A stretch of DNA of 64,000 nucleotides. It comes from Nitrososphaerota archaeon. GTDB taxonomy: Archaea > Thermoproteota > Nitrososphaeria_A > Caldarchaeales > Caldarchaeaceae. The stretch covers positions 416,001-480,000 of the forward strand of contig JBEPYN010000002.1 of assembly GCA_041641305.1 (NCBI GenBank), given 5' to 3'. The notes below the pieces were generated by a model. The model saw nothing but the letters and a program-made list of their open reading frames with translations. It did not search any database and was not told the origin of the DNA. Both the position numbers and the translations under genes were made by a program. This document shows, one piece after another, positions 2,788 through 51,248 of this stretch; within the stretch, counting starts at the first letter, position 1; each line of letters opens with the position of its first letter.

Positions 2788-3036
2788 CTATCTACGGGCA
2801 ACCCTGTCCATGCTGAGCCTACCCATGGAGTATCCGATGTTTATCAACGACTCAAGTATTCTAGGCCATGTTCCATCAACCATCCGCCTCTTAAGCCTCC
2901 TAAAGGCTGTAGAGTAATGACCGTAACGTACAGACATATCCATCCAGCAGCAGCCTGTAACTGGGACGTATAGTATACCGTTCAAAACCATCCTATCATC
3001 GGCCCTAGGAGGCAGTAGAGGCATACTAAGCCCCAC
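2788..3036 (-). mobile_element. IS5-family transposase remnant (N-terminal DUF4096-like part)
   Basis: PPRADDRMVLNGILYV..TGCCW.DM...YGHYSTAFRR..R....GTW.RI matches the typical IS5/IS427-group N-terminus; truncated before the DDE core. Confidence 0.75.
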
Positions 3037-34813: not shown

Positions 34814-34997
34814 CTTCTCTGACCTCTTAGCGACCCAAACTCCCCTCCTTTTTTTCCGTGGAGGCTTTCTCCCCCCTTTCGTATTGTCTGTTAGTGTCCG
34901 CCCTCGCGGGCGGAGCCTCCGGTCCCCGAGTCCGGGAGGCTTCCGCCCTTGTGGGGGAGAGGGGCGGAGAAGCCTCCCGGCGGGAGGGGTGAAAGAC

Positions 34998-35135: not shown

Positions 35136-35273
35136 CTGGCTGTGACAGCGCCAGCCAGCCAAAACACCCCTTCTTTTTTTCCTTCATATGCCCATACGCC
35201 TGAAACATGGCGTCCACCCCATAATCATTAAATGGGGTGGCGGGGGTGGTTGGCTGGCTCGCGCCTGGCTCCA

Positions 35274-36480: not shown

Positions 36481-37944
36481 ATGTGGGCTAGAGTTTTTGT
36501 GACACTGATAATCATCTTTGGCTTCGTAGGGTACGCTTGGTATGCAGCCATGTTAGCCTCTCAGAGATTGTTTGAACGTGGAATCATCAAAGAATCACCT
36601 ATGCCAACAATAGATGTCAAAACAATAACAACACAGGTGGCTCAGTACACAGGCATCGCTGTAACCCTGCTAATGATAGCCATTGTGGTAAAGAGGGTCG
36701 TTGAATCGGGTAGACTTCTGGGCGTCATTAAAGTCTCCGACCTTCAGAGGCATCTACTACTGCTTGGACCAACCGGTAGCGGCAAAACAAACACTGCTAA
36801 ACAGGCGATTGCCTTAGCCGTACGTCGTGGTGTCAGGGTAATCGTCATCGACTGGAAAGCCCTCTTCTCTCCGCCAGCGTTTTTCACGTCTCCCCAGCTC
36901 AGTTCCGCCGCATAGGGTTCGCGTGGAGCTTCTGGCGGAGCTGGGAGGGCCCAGAAAGGCGAGTACGTTAACTTCATCAAGGGAGCCTCCGTCGTCAGGA
37001 AACTCAACGTGTGGGACAACGGTGGTAGGTCGCCGAAGGAATGCGCTGTCCTCGCTGTCGAGACATTGAGAGAAATTACACGCGATATCGCAGATGTTTC
37101 ATCCGCCAGCGCAGCCCTTCTCCTGAGGGAGCTTGTAAAGCTCTACGGGAGAGGGGTGCCGAAGACATCCGACGTAGTTTCAGCTCTTGAGAAGTTCATA
37201 AACACCGCAATGGCGGAGCGGAGACTTGCCGAGGCGAATATGGCTTCTGCATTGCTTAGAAGGATGATGTGGCTCCAGATAGACGAGGAGAGGCCTGCGA
37301 AGAACATCATAGGCTCTGACAGGGTTGTTGTCTACGACTTATCAGAGCTCGGAAGCGTCTACCTGAAAACCATCTACAGCCTCAGCATCCTTTCAAAGAC
37401 CTACTACGGGGCCCTTAGACAGGGACAGTCCCAGAAACTAGAGACGCTGGTGATTGCAGAAGAGTGCCAAAACTACATACGTGGTAGGCGTTTCGACGAG
37501 CCTCCGTCGATTGGTGAGAGAATGGCTAACGAGCTGAGGGCCTACGGCGTCGGCATGGTCCTGATAAGCCCGGACCCTGTCCAGATACCCTGGCACCTCG
37601 CCAGAGACGTTGCAGCAGTAATATCCATAGGACTTCAGGCGATACCCGACAGCGTCAAGGACCTGTTGAGAACAATTGACCCCAAACAGGCGAAGAGAGT
37701 AATGATGGGTAAGAAGGCCTACGTCTATTACAACGGCAAACTGAAGACAGCCTCTCCGCCCAAGCCTCCAAAAGAAATAGAACTAAACGTTGACGTAAAA
37801 GAGGTGATTGAAGAGACTAAGCCTGAGGAGACTGTCGAGACTACTGCTACACAACCAGACAACTCTGGGGCAGAGGAGAGTGTTCAGACAATGCCGATAG
37901 AGCAGAAGGAGCCTTTGGAGGAGGCCCAGAGAGGCGTGAATTGA
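36481..37944 (+). CDS. membrane-anchored HerA/VirB4-like ATPase, spliced: join(36481..36857,36957..37944), 454 aa
   Basis: Walker A LLGPTGSGKT in exon 1; removing the BHB intron gives VIVIDWKGEY; Walker B region VIAEECQN and LRAYGVGMVLIS in exon 2. Confidence 0.85.
36858..36956 (+). other. BHB-type mRNA intron 1 (99 nt)
   Basis: Central helix CUGG/CCAG, bulges AAA/AAA, long inner stem; contains an in-frame TAG. Confidence 0.8.
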
Positions 37945-37990
37945 TAGAGAGCCGGGGAAACCTCCTCTAAGGCTTGAAGAAGATGAAGAG

Positions 37991-38755
37991 ATGGTCGATG
38001 AAGACGAAGAGCAGGTGACAGAGGCCCCGCATGGGCGCATACCCCCACGGGAGGGAGTCCCGCCAAGATGATGTGGTGGTTGTGAGCGCCCCGGGAAAGC
38101 CGAACCACAGACACAACAAGAAAAAGCAGAAGAGGAGCAGGCAGATGAAACCACTGGTGGATTCCCCCTCCACGGCCACATGGTCGTGGAGGAGGCTTTC
38201 GCTGACGAGTCGGTTCTACGATGTGTTAGATGTGGGGCTTCGGCCTCGCTGACAGAGGCTACACAACTCATGGAGAAGCCTTGCCAAGAACCTCGAATGA
38301 CGCAGGATAACCTTCAGACCCGGTGCGGATGTGGACGGCCGGCGACAAAGCTTATGCCGTCATACGACCCGATAACCATGACGTTTAAAGACCTCTGCCT
38401 GTGCGACGGCTGTGCCAACGACTACCTCAACATCCTCAGGAGGTCAGGCCCAGCCCTAGGCAAGATGAGGGGGAGAATACCTGCGAACGGCTATTGGTTC
38501 AACCTTTACAACACCGTCTTCCAGGAGCTGGCTGGGACATACCCGTGCCCAGCCTGCGACCAGTTCTTCGACGACCTGTATTCCGCGGTCAAACACTTCG
38601 GCGAAAAACACATCGACAAGACAAAGACTCCAGAGGAGGTTGTCATAGACGGGGTTCCCGCCCTTAGGACATGGCAATACATATGGTGTACAAAATGTCT
38701 GAGGTTCTTCGAGAACGAGCGACATTTCCGTTCACATCTCCGAGACCATAGGTGA
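37991..38755 (+). CDS. acidic N-terminus plus multiple Zn-finger protein, spliced: join(37991..38031,38098..38755), 232 aa (possible ATT start at 37940)
   Basis: CxxC pairs and C2H2-like CPAC...H....H and CTKC...H...H; the frame is open across the intron except for the intron TGA. Confidence 0.7.
38032..38097 (+). other. BHB-type mRNA intron 2 (66 nt)
   Basis: GGC-CCCG-CAU-GGGCGC pairs with GCGCCC-CGGG-AAA-GCC, a strict helix-bulge-helix-bulge-helix; contains an in-frame TGA. Confidence 0.8.
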
Positions 38756-39285: not shown

Positions 39286-40221
39286 ATGGGCAACAACGAG
39301 AAGTGGACTCTGCCGGTGGTCTATGGAAACCGGAGGGTTCGTAGGGAGCTCATCGAGGTGCTGATGACTGTTGAAGAGTACAACGGATACACGGTGCTTT
39401 ACCTATGGTTCCACTTCCCCTACGACTGGTTTACAGCGCTAAAACCCTATGACTGGGAGCCTGTTGCAATAGCGTTCAAAGACAGCCGACCCGCCAGAAT
39501 CTTCTGGAGACCTCACTGGGCGCTTAGATGCACACGGCCTGTACTTGTGGATAAGAAGACTGTTGTCTTCTACATAAGCCCCATCAAGGGAAACGCTCCG
39601 AGATGCTCCCACTTCGATGTACTGCGGTCCATACTGGAAGACCCGTCGACCTACGGAATACCTTATCGAAAGTTCAAAGAGCTACCGCTGAAAAGCCTTC
39701 TGAAGGATGGGTGGCCGCCCGAGCACGAAGCCCGCGCCGAAAGCTTCAGAGAATACGTTCACCGAGGCCTTGAAGACATAAAAAGATGCGGGGGCGTATA
39801 CAGCGTGGTAATGGGCTTCTTCACAGACCTCCTCAGGGCCTACCTTATGGCTAGGAGGAGAAACCTCGACGGCTTCTACTATTATCTTAAGACGGCATGG
39901 GAAAACACCACAGAGAGGTTCAGGAGGAGCGGACCCGGCTACGAGATGTACAACCTACTCGTCGCCGTCAAGTACCTGCTGATGCTGCAGAAAGCGACTG
40001 GTGAAGGGCCGACGGAGCGGTTCTGGCGGGACATGGAAGGCGACCCTATCCTTCCCCCAGTGGTTAGAGCGTTGACAGGCCACATCTGGTACCCCATAGG
40101 GTTGCTGATAGCAGATGGGTATACGCCAGCCCAGCCGTTCAAAGACTTCGTTGATAAAAAATGGAGACAATGGTTCAGAGACGCCCTCAAAGCCTGCAAT
40201 AAACACGCAAACGAAGCCTAA
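39286..40221 (+). CDS. hypothetical protein
   Basis: 311 aa with a GGAGGT ribosome-binding site; LWFHFPYDW...YDWEPV block of unknown family. Confidence 0.75.
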   Translation: MGNNEKWTLPVVYGNRRVRRELIEVLMTVEEYNGYTVLYLWFHFPYDWFTALKPYDWEPVAIAFKDSRPARIFWRPHWALRCTRPVLVDKKTVVFYISPIKGNAPRCSHFDVLRSILEDPSTYGIPYRKFKELPLKSLLKDGWPPEHEARAESFREYVHRGLEDIKRCGGVYSVVMGFFTDLLRAYLMARRRNLDGFYYYLKTAWENTTERFRRSGPGYEMYNLLVAVKYLLMLQKATGEGPTERFWRDMEGDPILPPVVRALTGHIWYPIGLLIADGYTPAQPFKDFVDKKWRQWFRDALKACNKHANEA

Positions 40222-40695: not shown

Positions 40696-41001
40696 ATGTA
40701 CCTAGTGAAGCTGCACACGGACCTTCGGGTACAACGACTCGTCTCGCGACCAGTGGAGATATTCTTTGGAGACTTGGTGACGACGATACCGAAGTCGGCT
40801 ATAGTCTGCGATGCATGCAACCAACAGGTCGCAGTCACGGAGCAGGACCTGAAAAACTTAGCGATGGGGTACGCTGTTGTAGACGGGGAATTCATCCTAG
40901 AGGTCGTATGTGAGGAATGCAGACAGCGCTACTTCGACGACATCCCGGTGTTCGACACATTAGAGGATGCCGAGGAGGTCTACGAGAAGAAGGTGAGGTG
41001 A
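40696..41001 (+). CDS. Zn-binding protein, paralog of 41004..41285
   Basis: CDAC...CEEC..R...PVFDTL. Confidence 0.7.
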   Translation: MYLVKLHTDLRVQRLVSRPVEIFFGDLVTTIPKSAIVCDACNQQVAVTEQDLKNLAMGYAVVDGEFILEVVCEECRQRYFDDIPVFDTLEDAEEVYEKKVR

Positions 41002-41287: not shown

Positions 41288-43088
41288 ATGGTCAGGGTAG
41301 TGGAGCTTCGGGAGGAGACTGAGCTTCTAGAAAAACTCAAGAATCGCTTTCCACACACTAGTCTACGTAGATATCAGGCCGACATCGCTAATAGGGTCTA
41401 CGAGAGCCTTTCCAACGGCTCTAGCATTCTTCTGGAGGGCCCTACGGGGCTGGGGAAGAGGCTATGAGGAGACTGTTTATGGGGGGTGGTTGGCTGGCTG
41501 GCGTCTCCGAGCCTCCTATACAGCCCCTGTATGGGCCGCGGTGAGCGCCTACGCGGAGGAGAAAGGTCTGAGGGTTCTATGGCTCACCCGGACGGCGTCC
41601 CAAGTAGCTCACATCGCCAGCGAGATAGGATGCATGCCCATCTACGGCCGCCGGCTTCTCTGTATCCATGAGACGGTTAGCAAGGTTGAGCAGAGACGGT
41701 TCAACGCGGCTTGTAGAGTTGTACGACTATCCGGACGTTGCTCATACTATCCCGGAAGGCCTAGCCAAATAAAGGCGAAGACTGTTGGAGAGATTAAAGA
41801 TGCCGGTAGGAAGTCGGTCACATGTCCCTACGAGCTTCAGCTGACATCGATGCCATACTCGACGTCGCTGGTCGCCACCCATAAACAGTTGTCTGTAGTT
41901 TCCTGGCTTTTGGCAAAATGGCGTTGGACCCGCGAGCGAACCATCTTGGTGCTCGACGAGTTCCAGAACATCTTGAAGACTGTTCTCGACCTCTCAAAAG
42001 ACGCCATAAGCCTGGCAACGCTCCACAAGGCCGCCGCAGAGGCAGCAAGGTATGGCTTCAGGGATATTTCCAGCAGTCTTTCAGAAGCTTATCAAAGATA
42101 CAAGGCGGTTGACGTTGACGAGGCTGAGGTAGAAAACCTACTGCCCAGCTTCGAAGAGCTCTTCGAGGCGGGGCAGGAGATACAGGCTAGGAAACTTGAG
42201 GAGAATGTTGTACCCGCCAGCTATGTGTTGAGCGTCGCAGACTTTAAGGCTGCTCTCGGCCAGCAGAAGCCCCTCCTAGTCAGGGAGGGTGAACGGGTTT
42301 GGCTGGAGGCGCTAGCAGACCCACGCGAGGAGCTTGAAAAGATTCTCGAAGGCTGGAGAACGGTCATAGCTATGACGGCCACGATGGATGCGGAACTCGT
42401 TGAACGCATGGCTTCAACCCAAGTGACGCTGTTGCGAGCAGGGTGGCCCTTCGACGATAATCTGAAGGCATACATTGTCAGCGGCCTTACGACGAGATAC
42501 AGGGACAGGGATGTGGAGCTCTATGAAGATGTCCGATGGCTTATAGAACAATCTCATGGAATGAGGACTCTCGTCTTCCTACCCAGCTATGAATTTGCTT
42601 CAATGATTCAGAAGAGGCTTAGCGACGCTATCGCCGAGCAACGGGGGATGACGCAGGAACAGGTGGAAGCCACGGCCGCTGAATTCGCGGAGGGTGGAAA
42701 AACGCTTTTAGCCGTCTTCGGTGGAAGGCTGGCAGAGGGCATCAACCTCCAAGCCGACTTGGTTATGCTGGTGGGCATACCATTCGCGAAACCATCACCG
42801 CGAACAAAGAAGCTCGAGGACAAGCTTGAGAATGTCTTTGGGAGCAGTGACCTTTCCCGGCTACATGGACTAGTTTTACCGGCCCTCTTTGCCGCCGTGC
42901 AGGCCGCCGGTAGGGCTGTCAGAGGCCCCAATGATAGGGCTCTGGTCCTGCTCGTCGACGACAGATACCGCCGTTTGACAAAACACTTGCCCAGATGGTT
43001 CAGAGACTTGGTCTCAGATAAGCCGGTCAAGCTCACAGATGTTCCCATTCTATTGGATGAGTGGTTGTCATGGATGAAGAGCGTTTGA
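41288..43088 (+). CDS. XPD/Rad3/DinG-family FeS helicase, spliced: join(41288..41458,41520..43088), 579 aa
   Basis: Q motif RRYQ; Walker A GPTGLGKT is rebuilt only after intron removal; FeS cysteines (LC...C...C...CPY), DEFQN, TAT, EGIN, GIPF and QAAGRAVR. Confidence 0.9.
41459..41519 (+). other. BHB-type mRNA intron 3 (61 nt) containing a kink-turn
   Basis: GGGGCUG-GGGA-AGA-GGC pairs with GCC-UCCU-AUA-CAGCCCC; causes a frameshift and contains a TGA. Confidence 0.9.
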
Positions 43089-44512
43089 GACACGTTCTTG
43101 AACGCATCCGCAGACAGAACATCAACTACGTGAAGCTCAGAGGACTTGTCAGCCGATTCATGACTCTCAACCCCGAGGCAGACCCAGAAGCAATAGATTG
43201 GACAGCCGTCTACGATGACTCCCTAAGCTACGACGAACTCGTCGAAGCATTTGAAAAAGAGTATCCCATGTACCGGTGGCGTGAGACAGCTCCCGCAGAT
43301 GACAAACAAATCGAGGACATGCTGGTGAACCATATCCTCAACCAGGTCGAGGACCTTACAGAAGAGTCTCTCAAGTCGCTCGTCAATGCCTTGGAGGAGC
43401 GGCTGGAGGCTCTACGGCAGGCCGAAACCCCGGCATCTCCGACGGAGCAACAACCCGAACATACACAGATGCAACATCCTCAGCACCAACCGCCGACTAT
43501 GACTGAAAACATACAACAGCCAGCGCCACAGCCGAAGGTAACCCTCAAGCTTCTCGCATCCTACCCCTTCCTAGCGGAGGCTAGGGAGGTGGTTAGGGGC
43601 GTGAGCTTCGAGGGTTTACCCAGGGCGGTATACAAAAGAGCCCGGGAGAGGCTAATGGAGGCTCTCGAACGGGGAGAGCTGGGGGTTGTTCCCCGGCTCG
43701 ATGAACCGTTCGTGGAGCTTCTCTCCTTTCCCGTGGCGAAGGCCGTTGTCCACACAATCGACGACGACTGGCTGAAAAGGCGATGGGCCCTCGCAGAGTC
43801 AGCGAGGGTCGAGAGGCTTCTACTGAAGGAGAATGCGGATGTCTCAGAATGGCTCCTCTCCCGGCTACTTGAGGTCAGGCGAGAGGGAGAGGAGTATGCG
43901 CTGAGGTTCACTGATTACCTAAAGCTTGCTGAAGGCCTTACCACCGATATCTCATGGAAGCTAGTAAACCAAAAACTGCATCGAGGCTGGGTCTTCATAA
44001 CAAAGACTCGTCTCATACGACTCATCAGACAAAAACTCTACCAACTTCTCTATAACAGCTTCCAGCAGACGCCCAAACTGACAAAAATACCTCAACAAAT
44101 CGCCGAAATGGTCGCCGACATAACCGAGGAGCTCCAAAAAATCAAAGCCCGGGCAGGACGGGTCACACCCGTCAAAGGCGCAATACCGCCCTGTATGAAG
44201 ACGATTAGCGATAGGCTGGCGGACGCCAGCCACACAGAGAACTTCGTATACGCCGCCTACTTGGTCAATACGGGATACAGCATCGAGGAAATCGTTGATG
44301 TCTTTAGGAAGAGAGCTGACTTCGACGAGAGGATAGCACGGTATCAGATAGAGCATATAGCGGGGCTGAGGGGGAGCCGTGTGAAATACCGGCCACCTTC
44401 ATGCTCCCGCATGCGGGAACTCGGACTATGCATCGAGAACGGAAGACTATGCCCACCGAATATCCACAACCCACTACAATACCGACCTAGACAACAGCGA
44501 CAACCCACCTAA
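43061..44512 (+). CDS. priL: DNA primase large subunit (PriL) with N-terminal extension
   Basis: YPFL..A, RRWALAES, WKLVNQ.L..GWV, PPCM, DFDERIARYQIEHIAG and YRPPSC...GLC....C. Confidence 0.85.
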   Translation: MVVMDEERLRHVLERIRRQNINYVKLRGLVSRFMTLNPEADPEAIDWTAVYDDSLSYDELVEAFEKEYPMYRWRETAPADDKQIEDMLVNHILNQVEDLTEESLKSLVNALEERLEALRQAETPASPTEQQPEHTQMQHPQHQPPTMTENIQQPAPQPKVTLKLLASYPFLAEAREVVRGVSFEGLPRAVYKRARERLMEALERGELGVVPRLDEPFVELLSFPVAKAVVHTIDDDWLKRRWALAESARVERLLLKENADVSEWLLSRLLEVRREGEEYALRFTDYLKLAEGLTTDISWKLVNQKLHRGWVFITKTRLIRLIRQKLYQLLYNSFQQTPKLTKIPQQIAEMVADITEELQKIKARAGRVTPVKGAIPPCMKTISDRLADASHTENFVYAAYLVNTGYSIEEIVDVFRKRADFDERIARYQIEHIAGLRGSRVKYRPPSCSRMRELGLCIENGRLCPPNIHNPLQYRPRQQRQPT

Positions 44513-44667
44513 ACACCCCCTATTTTTTCTTTCCCCGATAGGAGGCCCTTTCCGCCGCTCTCCGGCGGGAGGGGTTCCTCCTGTCGGGGAGAGGTGGACT
44601 CAGGCCTCCCGGGAAAGCCATGACATTAAGTCATGGTACCGGACCCGGCCACCGGGGTAAAGGTGGC

Positions 44668-45066: not shown

Positions 45067-45970
45067 ATTCATAGACCCCACCATTCTGAAAGGGTGGTGG
45101 GGTTCCGAGGAATACCAGAGGCTGTTATCCTTCGAGCCGGAAAATGCAGGTGACTACTATCGGTTACCATTCGCCAAATACAACGAGCTCTTTCCGTTCA
45201 TCAAAGTCAAGATTGAGCACCCTGCAGTGATGAACCCATACTTGGCGATTTTCCTTTGGCGGCGTTACGTAAAACCAAATGATGTAATAATCGACCCTAT
45301 GGCTGGGATAGGGGGTACACCCGATATGTAGGGGCCCAGCTTTATCCCAGCCATAGCCTGCAGATTGACCAATGATAACCACTTAATCCTCAACGATATT
45401 GAGTCGACTTACGCCAGACTCTCTGAGGAGCTTCTTTCGGAGATGCTGGTCGTTACTAATCACAGCACCCTGCTGGACGTCTACAACGTAAACGCTGCCT
45501 CTCTTTATGAACTTCTTAGACCAAGAGGACTTGCTGGAGGCGTACGGAGGAGGGTTATTATTACCTCTCCTCCGTATGGCCTCCTCAGGCCCTGTGATAG
45601 CTTCAGCCCGAGGTTTGGCAGACTGACGGTAACTTCCGCCGGTAACCTTAGCGTGATAACCGGTAAACACTTTAGGGCGGCTTGGCTGGGCGTGCTGACT
45701 TCGATGTATCTCTGTCTCAACCAGTTCCATAGAAACCGTGACTTGGCTGTGATTGTCCTCAAAAACTTCAAGAATAACAATGTGGAAAAGGCTGTTGGAA
45801 AAAACCTCGTCAATTTAACGGTTGAACTCGCGGAGTTCGTTGGATTCAAACATCTCGAGACGCTGAAGTTCAAGATTTCAGGCAGCCACTTCGCCAGATA
45901 CCACGACATCAAGCAACATGTCCATGACCTCTGGCACGAATATGCGCTGGTCTTCCGCAAGGTGGTGTAG
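45059..45970 (+). CDS. amino (N4-C/N6-A) DNA methyltransferase, spliced: join(45059..45318,45340..45970), 296 aa
   Basis: HPAVM, motif I IIDPMAGIGGTF (rebuilt by splicing), NDIE, motif IV ITSPPY and HEYALVFRK. Confidence 0.85.
45319..45339 (+). other. BHB-type mRNA intron 4 (21 nt)
   Basis: 14-bp perfect exon-exon stem CUAUGGCUGGGAUA/UAUCCCAGCCAUAG plus two G-U pairs, helix GGGU/GCCC, bulges ACA/AGC; contains an in-frame TAG. Confidence 0.9.
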
Positions 45971-46819
45971 ATGAGGATTTTCGCTGATGTTCATAGGAAA
46001 AAGGATGACAGCGGCTACCGCATCACATATACAACTGACGGCGAAGTCTTTAAACACGTTGATTCTCCGATGGACATCCCCGCGCAGGCAGGAGACGAGG
46101 TATTCGTTGACACTATACCGATAATCCACACCGACGCATTCATAGAGCTACTGAGGAGAGGTGTAGAGGTCTATTATCTACGAAGACTCTCACTTATTGA
46201 AAAGACAAGACAGAGACTGGGGATACCGAAGTCAGCCAAAAATGACGTAAAAATTCTGATGAACATTGAGAAGAAATGGTTCAAGAGAGTTGACGAGGAC
46301 TTCTTGAGCATGCGTCAGATTATTTCGGCGTTTAGGAGATTGGATAGAGACAAACAGAGGTTGGAGAACCAGTCTAAGGACGTGCCGGAGATTACAAAGG
46401 AAAGCTTCAGGAGGCTCATAGACCATACAGAGGAGGAGAAGTTGGTAATAGCCAAACCAATAGTAGAAGAAGCAGAGAAGAGGCTTTCGTTATTTAGAGT
46501 AGTAGCGCAGGAGCTGGGTGTTGCAGACGATAATCATTCGATGGGAAGAGAGGCACTGGCCGAACTACTGACATACGTAGACTTCAGCAAATCCTTCAGA
46601 AAAGTCAGAGAGTATCTCGGACTCTTCAGAAACCCGAAGACCAAAAACATGAGATACAGCCACAGTTCTAGGAAGGCGTTGAACCGTCTAACAATGTCGC
46701 TGACGGGCAGAGAGCCAAAAGCAGAAGACGAGGAAACAATAGCTTTCAAGATATGGCTGACGTTCCGACGGGAAAACCAAAAGAGGCTGGCGGGCATACC
46801 GGCCCAACAACAGGGATAA
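45971..46819 (+). CDS. short IS110-related protein (RuvC-like DEDD domain, coiled coil, Nop/Tnp-like C-terminus)
   Basis: IFADVH (D6), VFVDT (D47), KSAKND in place of KTDxxD, LRQ-like MRQ...R.L......LEN coiled coil, and FRKVREYLGL. No serine loop seen after YLGL. Confidence 0.65.
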   Translation: MRIFADVHRKKDDSGYRITYTTDGEVFKHVDSPMDIPAQAGDEVFVDTIPIIHTDAFIELLRRGVEVYYLRRLSLIEKTRQRLGIPKSAKNDVKILMNIEKKWFKRVDEDFLSMRQIISAFRRLDRDKQRLENQSKDVPEITKESFRRLIDHTEEEKLVIAKPIVEEAEKRLSLFRVVAQELGVADDNHSMGREALAELLTYVDFSKSFRKVREYLGLFRNPKTKNMRYSHSSRKALNRLTMSLTGREPKAEDEETIAFKIWLTFRRENQKRLAGIPAQQQG

Positions 46820-46910
46820 AACCCATAGGCCGGTATGTCATGTTATAAAACGAACTGGCTCTCTTGCCAGTTATGTCCCAACCTTTAACGACCGGCCTCT
46901 TTTTGGGTTT
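46819..46910 (+). ncRNA. putative dual-guide RNA (bridge-RNA/tigRNA-like loop)
   Basis: Stem AGGCCGGT/ACCGGCCT encloses ATGTC-N9-AACG, hairpin AACTGGC/GCCAGTT, then a second ATGTC-N9-AACG; lies directly after the stop codon of the IS110-like gene. Confidence 0.6.
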
Positions 46911-47017
46911 CCTAGGTGTTGTTTGGTGGTTGCCTGCCAGCCAACCATCCCCCTATTTTTCCCTTCTTTTTGTGATGTTTTTTGTTTATATCATGGGTGT
47001 GGGGTGTTTTCGGGGGT

Positions 47018-51143: not shown

Positions 51144-51248
51144 GGGCCCGTAGCTTAGCATGGATAGAGCGCTGGCCTCCGGAGCCAGAGGTCGTGAGCG
51201 GCGGTACGGAAGTGCCGCGCCGGCAGGGTTCAAATCCCACCGGGCCCG
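51144..51248 (+). tRNA. tRNA-Arg(CCG) with a 30-nt intron (51197..51226) in the T-stem
   Basis: Acceptor GGGCCCG/CGGGCCC, anticodon stem CTGGC-CTCCGGA-GCCAG, T-arm GTG|GG-TTCAAAT-CCCAC; BHB helix GUCG/CGGC with bulges UGA/AGG; TTTAAATA box upstream. Confidence 0.95.

What the first reader, a model, noticed from the sequence alone, without database searches (positions are those of the whole stretch)
38032..38097. Intron 2: 66-nt strict BHB insert in the Zn-finger gene
GGC-CCCG-CAU-GGGCGC pairs with GCGCCC-CGGG-AAA-GCC, a complete helix-bulge-helix-bulge-helix. Splicing gives CCG CA|A GCC = ...EQVTEAPQAEPQTQQEKAEEEQ..., joining two acidic, Gln-rich segments of matching composition and removing the only stop (TGA 38069-71). 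No catalytic motif is rebuilt here, so support rests on geometry and reading frame.
Basis: seen in the sequence. Interest (0 to 1): 0.78.

Follow-up and report, generated by a model that had tools for sequence, protein, structure and literature searches.

The report
Spliced intron in three-intron archaeal gene
A 66-base intron of the kind archaea cut out of tRNAs is one of three that split a DNA-transfer ATPase gene on a mobile element of a hot-spring archaeon, and hot-spring RNA holds a near-identical copy as an excised circle; in the papers I could search, such splicing is shown for only one archaeal protein-coding region.

Summary
The insert is there as described and is almost certainly a real EndA-type (BHB) mRNA intron. 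Geometry alone is weak: shuffles give 0.3 such motifs per window. Five other distinct alleles carry 64-70-nt inserts at the same site with all 13 pairs kept, and cutting by the BHB rule restores the frame in each. A metatranscriptome contig shows a close allele as a circle joined at 38032; two DNA runs show no such joint. The exon-exon junction of this intron was not seen. Removing 36858-36956, a newly found 28-nt insert (37932-37959) and this intron gives one 693-aa protein; Ca. Caldarchaeum subterraneum encodes ATPase, linker and first Zn knuckle uninterrupted. Across relatives, 27 inserts of 16-141 nt sit in this acidic linker, and all restore the frame. The host is Ca. Caldarchaeum; the gene lies on a CRISPR-targeted element. 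This scan already noted BHB mRNA introns in DPANN, Asgard and one virus-like element. New here: Caldarchaeales, several introns per gene, a linker hot spot, and RNA support.

The parts
38032..38097 (+). Intron C (the finding): 66-nt strict BHB intron, phase 2, in-frame TGA at 38069-71
   Evidence: circular form of a close allele in RNA run X17, table 5c
38023..38038 (+). 5' strand of the BHB: exon helix 38023-25, central helix 38026-29, bulge 38030-32, intron helix 38033-38
38086..38101 (+). 3' strand of the BHB: intron helix 38086-91, central helix 38092-95, bulge 38096-98, exon helix 38099-101
38032..38064 (+). Conserved 5' half of the intron (91-97% identical in four relatives whose flanking exon DNA is 52-73% identical); its G-rich core at 38048-60 recurs in the L013 linker intron and in the element at 44540-44615
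36481..36857 (+). Exon 1: start codon, hydrophobic (probably membrane) segments, Walker A, ending at D-W-K
   Evidence: similar N-terminus in L011 and L016
36858..36956 (+). Intron A: 99-nt relaxed BHB intron inside D-W-K-G-E-Y
   Evidence: spliced junction in RNA run X17 (loose ends at 36859 and 36954)
36957..37931 (+). Exon 2: ATPase body and start of the acidic linker
37932..37959 (+). Intron B (not in the finding): 28-nt relaxed BHB-like insert, long exon-exon helix but only 2 of 4 central pairs in register; holds the stop 37942-44 and shifts the frame
   Evidence: alleles of 16, 29, 34 and 36 nt (three with a full central helix), absent in L031 and L034; no RNA evidence
37960..38031 (+). 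Exon 3: 72 nt with the conserved L-R-L-E-E motif
38098..38755 (+). Exon 4: rest of the linker, His/Cys knuckle, a CxC/CxxC pair and two C2H2-like fingers; ATG 38180 is internal
38230..38241 (+). Coding stretch that can pair over 12 bp with 38021-38032 and displaces the BHB in equilibrium folds of longer transcripts
41459..41519 (+). 61-nt BHB intron in the Walker A of the element's XPD/DinG-like helicase (internal control for the splicing rule)
   Evidence: spliced and circular forms in RNA run X17, unspliced in DNA run X18; 61-90-nt alleles

Best explanation
38032-38097 is a true pre-mRNA intron. It is the third intron of a single gene (36481-38755) for a membrane-anchored HerA/VirD4-like ATPase with an acidic linker and a C-terminal multi-Zn-finger tail, on an integrated conjugative-type element of Ca. 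Caldarchaeum. The nascent mRNA folds the BHB; the host two-subunit EndA cuts after the second base of each bulge; a ligase, probably RtcB, joins the exons and closes the intron into a circle. Shown: geometry, allele series, restored frame, uninterrupted homologs, circle of a close allele, spliced junctions for two neighbouring introns, EndA and RtcB genes. Inferred: the enzymes' role, splicing of this exact allele, splicing of the 28-nt intron B, and the 693-aa product. Most likely these are near-neutral passengers that accumulate where the exon sequence already offers half a BHB (Pro-X codons of a length-tolerant acidic linker) and survive because splicing hides them.
For: RNA run X17 has a contig (depth 30.8; the listed contigs nearby 9-13.6) that runs to 38080, continues with a 20-letter variant of the intron's 3' end and returns to 38032; DNA runs X2 and X18 show no such joint and X2 covers the site unspliced. 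The same run shows intron A spliced and the helicase intron both spliced and circular at the predicted bases. Six distinct alleles at this site (66, 69, 69, 66, 70, 64 nt): 78 of 78 cells paired, one compensatory change, and the frame restored in all, including the two whose length is not a multiple of 3. In L031 and L034 this intron is the only break in the linker between ATPase and Zn fingers. L017 (C. subterraneum) and L016 encode ATPase, linker and first knuckle in one ORF. 27 linker inserts: 25 with a full 4-pair central helix in 9 sequence versions, 3' bulge starting with A in 27, 19 not a multiple of 3, all frame-restoring; 13 of them were picked by BHB score without using the frame. 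Two EndA subunit genes and RtcB are in the genome.
Against: The exon-exon junction of this intron is not among the listed rows (lists were truncated, one call only). The circle is from an allele with about 3 extra bases and substitutions, not the window's own. Contigs give no strand or level. Covariation at this site alone is weak (78 of 500 shuffles reach it). A 12-bp competing helix removes the BHB in equilibrium folds once 38230-41 is included, so splicing would have to be early or partial. Intron B is degenerate here and has no RNA support. No allele lacking the intron at exactly this codon was found among close relatives.
Confidence: 0.9

Rival explanations
1. The intron is real but regulatory: partial splicing switches between short ATPase forms (454 or 487 aa) and the full form with the Zn-finger tail (693 aa), and more generally gates the element's transfer and replication genes on host EndA activity.
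For: Retaining intron B or C gives clean stops just after the complete ATPase. Some relatives have only a short tail (L011, L016, L017). Competing helix. Other introns sit in Walker A of the helicase and in D-W-K-G-E-Y, and BHB elements precede two ATGs (34931-34986, 44540-44615). Relative to C. subterraneum no chromosomal gene of this genome showed a convincing insert.
Against: No quantitative RNA or protein data. Intron number, position and sequence vary freely (0 to at least 3 per linker), which fits drift. The helix at 38230-41 is protein-coding sequence and BHB probability differs widely among alleles (0.04-0.97). This reading adds to the best explanation rather than replacing it.
Confidence: 0.25
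2. Two separate genes: the ATPase ends at 37944 and a stand-alone Zn-finger protein starts at ATG 38180 or by re-initiation; the hairpins are intergenic structures.
For: Gene callers annotate it so in every interrupted relative; no longer fused protein was found from the Zn-finger query (a weak search); intron B is degenerate in this strain.
Against: Met 38180 is not conserved and follows a conserved His that probably binds Zn; uninterrupted homologs; frame restored by BHB cuts in 17 loci; RNA circle.
Confidence: 0.05
3. DNA-level inverted-repeat insertions (MITE-like) that have broken the gene, or recoding (readthrough or frameshift) over a hairpin.
For: The inserts end in inverted repeats, a related sequence occurs at another linker position (L013) and in front of a gene (44540), and the window's insert is a multiple of 3 with one stop.
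Against: No target-site duplication is apparent; joints appear in RNA and not in the two DNA runs; allele lengths cover all three frames, which one recoding event cannot bridge; the downstream Cys/His residues stay invariant.
Confidence: 0.04

Closest known systems
cbf5 pre-mRNA intron of Desulfurococcales and Sulfolobales (Watanabe 2002; Yokobori 2009, PMC2738675)
   Same: BHB or relaxed-BHB intron inside a protein-coding region, with a stop or frameshift, in a host with a hetero-oligomeric EndA; present or absent among relatives.
   Different: cbf5 has one intron of 16-44 nt at one site of a housekeeping gene. Here there are three per gene, 16-141 nt, at several sites of a low-complexity linker, on a mobile element, in Caldarchaeales.
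5' UTR intron of HVO_1309 in Haloferax volcanii (PMC7714728)
   Same: EndA substrate in an mRNA, found as a circular RNA.
   Different: Non-coding position; single case; euryarchaeal host. The element's 34931 and 44540 BHBs resemble it more than intron C does.
Transposed tRNA introns of Thermoproteales (Fujishima 2010, as cited in 10.64898/2026.10.13.758758) and MGE-derived tRNA intron gain in C. subterraneum (PMC3293823)
   Same: Related intron sequences at different positions (intron C and the L013 intron), constrained by BHB context; link between mobile elements and intron gain in this genus.
   Different: Those are tRNA genes; here the target is a protein linker and no homing endonuclease ORF is present.
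CedB/TedB and VirB4/VirD4/HerA-like ATPases of archaeal DNA-transfer systems (PMC9905601)
   Same: Host protein hits DUF87 (HerA central) and TrwB_AAD_bind; a relative's neighbour has a weak CedA1 hit.
   Different: Acidic linker and multi-Zn-finger tail with no Pfam or PDB match; on a CRISPR-targeted accessory element with helicase and primase rather than a domesticated locus.

Membership tests
Archaeal BHB (EndA-spliced) intron | Two 3-nt bulges on opposite strands separated by a 4-bp helix, flanked by helices | tested here: met
Archaeal BHB (EndA-spliced) intron | Cut after the second nucleotide of each bulge | tested here: met
   circle junction of a close allele returns to 38032 from the second base of the 3' bulge; same rule seen for 41459-41519 and intron A
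Archaeal BHB (EndA-spliced) intron | Excised intron circularised | tested here: met
   table 5c (close allele, one RNA run)
Archaeal BHB (EndA-spliced) intron | Exons ligated in the mature RNA | tested here: inconclusive
   not among listed rows for this intron; seen for intron A and the helicase intron
Archaeal BHB (EndA-spliced) intron | Host encodes EndA and a ligase | tested here: met
   two tRNA_int_endo genes, one with the Tyr/His/Lys triad as I read it, and RtcB
Archaeal BHB (EndA-spliced) intron | Cleavage by purified EndA | not testable with these tools
   needs an in vitro assay
mRNA intron (cbf5 type) | Removal restores an ORF homologous to uninterrupted genes | tested here: met
Homing-endonuclease BHB intron (rRNA type) | Intron-encoded endonuclease ORF | tested here: not met
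   all 27 linker inserts are 16-141 nt
Intron-encoded C/D or H/ACA guide RNA | Box motifs and complementarity to a stable RNA | tested here: inconclusive
   no Rfam match; longest complement to the 16S region 10 nt, like shuffles; 23S not tested; K-loop-like tandem GA in L031-L033, degenerate in the window (by eye)
Ced/Ted DNA-import system | CedA/TedA channel, CedA1/TedC pilin and VirB4-like ATPase together | tested here: inconclusive
   ATPase family met; no Pfam hit for the candidate membrane ORFs in the window; weak CedA1 hit in relative L037

The most novel reading that the evidence does not exclude
A family of archaeal mobile elements has exon-intron gene structure: several small BHB introns per gene that spread between sites, with the host tRNA-splicing machinery acting as a switch that gates the transfer ATPase, helicase and ribosome-binding sites and yields ATPase forms with or without a Zn-finger tail, i.e. 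regulated alternative splicing in a prokaryote.
Probability: 0.25. Interest if true: 0.9.

Novelty: new variant of a known kind. Interest (0 to 1): 0.74.

Why it matters
As of the 2020 paper read here, BHB splicing of archaeal mRNA was shown for cbf5 and one 5' UTR (PMC7714728), and my literature searches found nothing newer. A gene with three introns, a linker that has gained introns at several sites across an order, and RNA junctions at the predicted bases make intron gain in protein genes directly testable with a simple enzyme assay. It also means gene callers split these element genes into false ORFs, and it suggests that mobile elements can make their own expression depend on the host tRNA-splicing machinery.

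Tried and rejected
Geometry or folding energy as proof: not significant alone. Viral contig scans with the Zn-finger ORF and the ATPase alignment found nothing. The 'longer' protein search found no fused form, but it is weak and the interrupted relatives are called as split ORFs. No copy of the intron elsewhere in the host genome; the 25-nt hit at C2:682578 is ordinary coding sequence. The spliced junction is not in the genome DNA. Rfam: nothing on the intron. Guide-RNA idea: no complement to the 16S region above chance (one search used the wrong strand; 23S untested). Peptide conservation inside the intron rejected, since L040 keeps the DNA in another frame. Rolling-circle translation of 66/69-nt circles considered and dropped: the window's allele has a stop and lengths vary mod 3. 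Fold search of the Zn-finger region gave no match at E <= 0.001. One search had a mis-typed structure and is replaced. Genome-wide insert screen against C. subterraneum found only the element's helicase intron, but it missed intron A and cannot see introns shared by both genomes. RNA run X20 barely covers the site and says nothing. No att site or integrase was identified.

Full report
Observation. The pairings, bulges, 66-nt length, TGA at 38069-71 and spliced reading E-A-P-Q-A-E-P are all as stated. The 106-nt local fold is the BHB with pair probabilities of 0.86-1.0 from 37 to 70 C, but its energy is not unusual (z -1.45). A strict 3+4+6 Watson-Crick BHB occurs once in the window against 0.3 per shuffle; with an A-N-A 3' bulge none of 30 shuffles has one. 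Geometry alone is therefore suggestive, not decisive.

Host and context. The window is G000:C2:416001-480000. Same-genus genomes carry titles Ca. Caldarchaeum sp. and G009 is Ca. Caldarchaeum subterraneum. The genome has tRNA introns, two EndA subunit genes and RtcB. The first 46 kb of the window are not syntenic with C. subterraneum, and its CRISPR spacers match 34970-34992, 40762-40795 and 43998-44030; runs X17 and X18 also hold a copy of 39875-39915 between CRISPR repeats. With HerA/VirB4-like ATPases, a helicase and a primase, this is an integrated mobile element; I found no att site or integrase.

The gene model. The Zn-finger ORF is not a separate gene. In C. subterraneum (L017, 497 aa) and Ca. 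Terraquivivens (L016, 563 aa) the membrane-anchored ATPase, the acidic linker and the first His/Cys knuckle form one ORF. In the window the two parts are separated by two inserts: a 28-nt relaxed BHB-like one at 37932-37959, which neither the finding nor the earlier notes I saw mention, and the 66-nt one. Removing these and the 99-nt insert at 36858-36956 gives a 693-aa ORF from 36481 to 38755 that aligns with spliced relatives and, up to the first knuckle, with the uninterrupted ones. ATG 38180 is internal: Met in 2 of 15 aligned sequences, directly after a His conserved in 14 of 15, in the middle of a predicted strand. The proposed starts fail too: 37940 is inside the 28-nt insert, and the Met at 37991 is missing in allele L008.

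Alleles at the same site. L031, L032, L033, L040 and L034-39 carry inserts of 69, 69, 66, 70 and 64 nt after the same E-A-P codons. All 13 pairs hold in all six distinct sequences, with one compensatory C-G to U-A change, while bulge bases and the interior vary; that single change is not significant alone (78 of 500 shuffles). Cutting by the BHB rule opens the frame to the C-terminus in each, including the 70- and 64-nt alleles. In L031 and L034 the 28-nt insert is absent and the ATPase frame runs straight to this site. The short insert itself varies (16, 28, 29, 34, 36 nt), has a full central helix in L032, L033 and L040, and restores the frame each time.

The wider family. In seven more distant loci I took the best-scoring non-overlapping BHBs without regard to frame (13 inserts); each set restored a continuous linker-to-Zn-finger frame (L014 and L018 come from one genome). 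In the tally of 27 linker inserts, 25 have four central pairs, in 9 sequence versions, every 3' bulge starts with A, and 19 are not a multiple of 3. All fall in phase 2, nearly all one codon after a Pro. L128 has three within 400 nt. The intron-C sequence is related to an intron at a different linker position in L013 and shares a core motif with the BHB element at 44540-44615, which suggests copying between sites (inference).

RNA. In metatranscriptome X17 a contig of depth 30.8 runs through the intron to 38080, continues with a 20-letter variant of its 3' end (the same letters occur at the 3' end of the L033 intron) and returns to 38032: the circle predicted by the BHB cuts, from an allele about 3 nt longer than the window's. 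The same run shows the helicase intron both removed (41458 to 41520) and circular (41519 to 41459), and intron A removed. DNA runs X2 and X18 show none of these joints and cover the sites unspliced. The exon-exon junction of intron C and any junction for the 28-nt insert are not among the listed rows; the tables were truncated and only one call was allowed. These are assembled contigs from one study, so strand and level are not shown.

Mechanism. Most likely the host EndA cuts the BHB soon after it is transcribed and RtcB joins exons and closes the intron (known chemistry; inferred here). The BHB dominates until about 50 nt downstream are made (probability 0.95) but is displaced at equilibrium by a 12-bp helix with 38230-41, so splicing may be early or incomplete. 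Retention gives ATPase forms of 454 or 487 aa without the tail. I think near-neutral accumulation in a tolerant linker is likelier than regulation (about 0.25), because number and position vary so freely. Unexplained: the first 33 nt of the intron are 91-97% identical in four relatives whose flanks are 52-73% identical; recent spread or a function of the circle could both do this, and I found no guide target.

Comparison and novelty. It works like, and meets the testable defining features of, an EndA-spliced BHB intron. Published mRNA cases are cbf5 (16-44 nt, one site; PMC2738675) and the HVO_1309 5' UTR (PMC7714728); five further searches found no report for Caldarchaeales or for mobile elements, though the library lacks many subscription papers. 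Relative to C. subterraneum, the only convincing BHB insert in shared genes was the element's helicase intron (the screen is insensitive), so the introns seem concentrated on the element. Earlier notes of this scan report BHB mRNA introns in DPANN, Asgard and one virus-like element (not checked here). I rate it a new variant of a known kind, interest 0.74.

Noticed in passing
window 41459-41519 (+): 61-nt BHB intron in the helicase Walker A; spliced and circular in RNA run X17, a second allele also circular; 61-90-nt alleles in eight other loci.
   Followed up: yes
window 44540-44615 (+): 76-nt BHB element ending 4 nt before ATG 44620, with a possible nested 26-nt BHB (44566-44591); a variant of 44559-44590 is by far the deepest piece in both RNA runs (depth about 275), though in a longer contig with other flanks; conserved in L008, L034, L035.
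   Followed up: partly
window 34931-34986 (+): 56-nt BHB element whose 3' strand overlaps a G-rich ribosome-binding-like sequence before ATG 34998; removal would free it. Its 3' end is matched by a C. subterraneum CRISPR spacer.
   Followed up: partly
window 46819-46915 (+): 97-nt BHB-like element starting at the stop codon of ORF 45971-46819, with a related copy at G000 C1:515992 (-).
   Followed up: no
window 45300-45351 (+): Long inverted repeat at the break of the methyltransferase-like gene; earlier notes call it a 21-nt intron. No RNA joint was listed for it.
   Followed up: no
window 39875-39915, 40762-40795, 43998-44030: Protospacers matched by Caldarchaeum-type CRISPR spacers (reads and G009).
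   Followed up: partly
window 51144-51248 (+): tRNA-Arg(CCG) with an intron, missed by the tRNA tool without its intron option; no second copy of its 3' half near the element.
   Followed up: partly
L031:1459-1527, L032:1430-1498, L033:1438-1503: K-loop-like tandem GA motif in the 3' half of the intron alleles, and a constant 15 nt from that stem to the 3' bulge (H/ACA-like spacing); degenerate in the window.
   Followed up: partly
L127:2508-2648, L011 about 2870-3020: Longer inserts (141 nt in the linker; a helicase insert with an inner 36-nt BHB) that may be nested introns.
   Followed up: no
G000 C1:535991-538729 (L029, L030): RtcB is split by a long in-frame insertion within a 975-aa open frame, probably an intein.
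   Followed up: no
window 35240-35266, 35150-35170 and G000 C1:441661, C1:517964, C1:439973, C1:515864, C2:519317: A G-rich 17-28-nt motif found inside the helicase intron recurs in intergenic cassettes of this element and at several other places in the genome.
   Followed up: no
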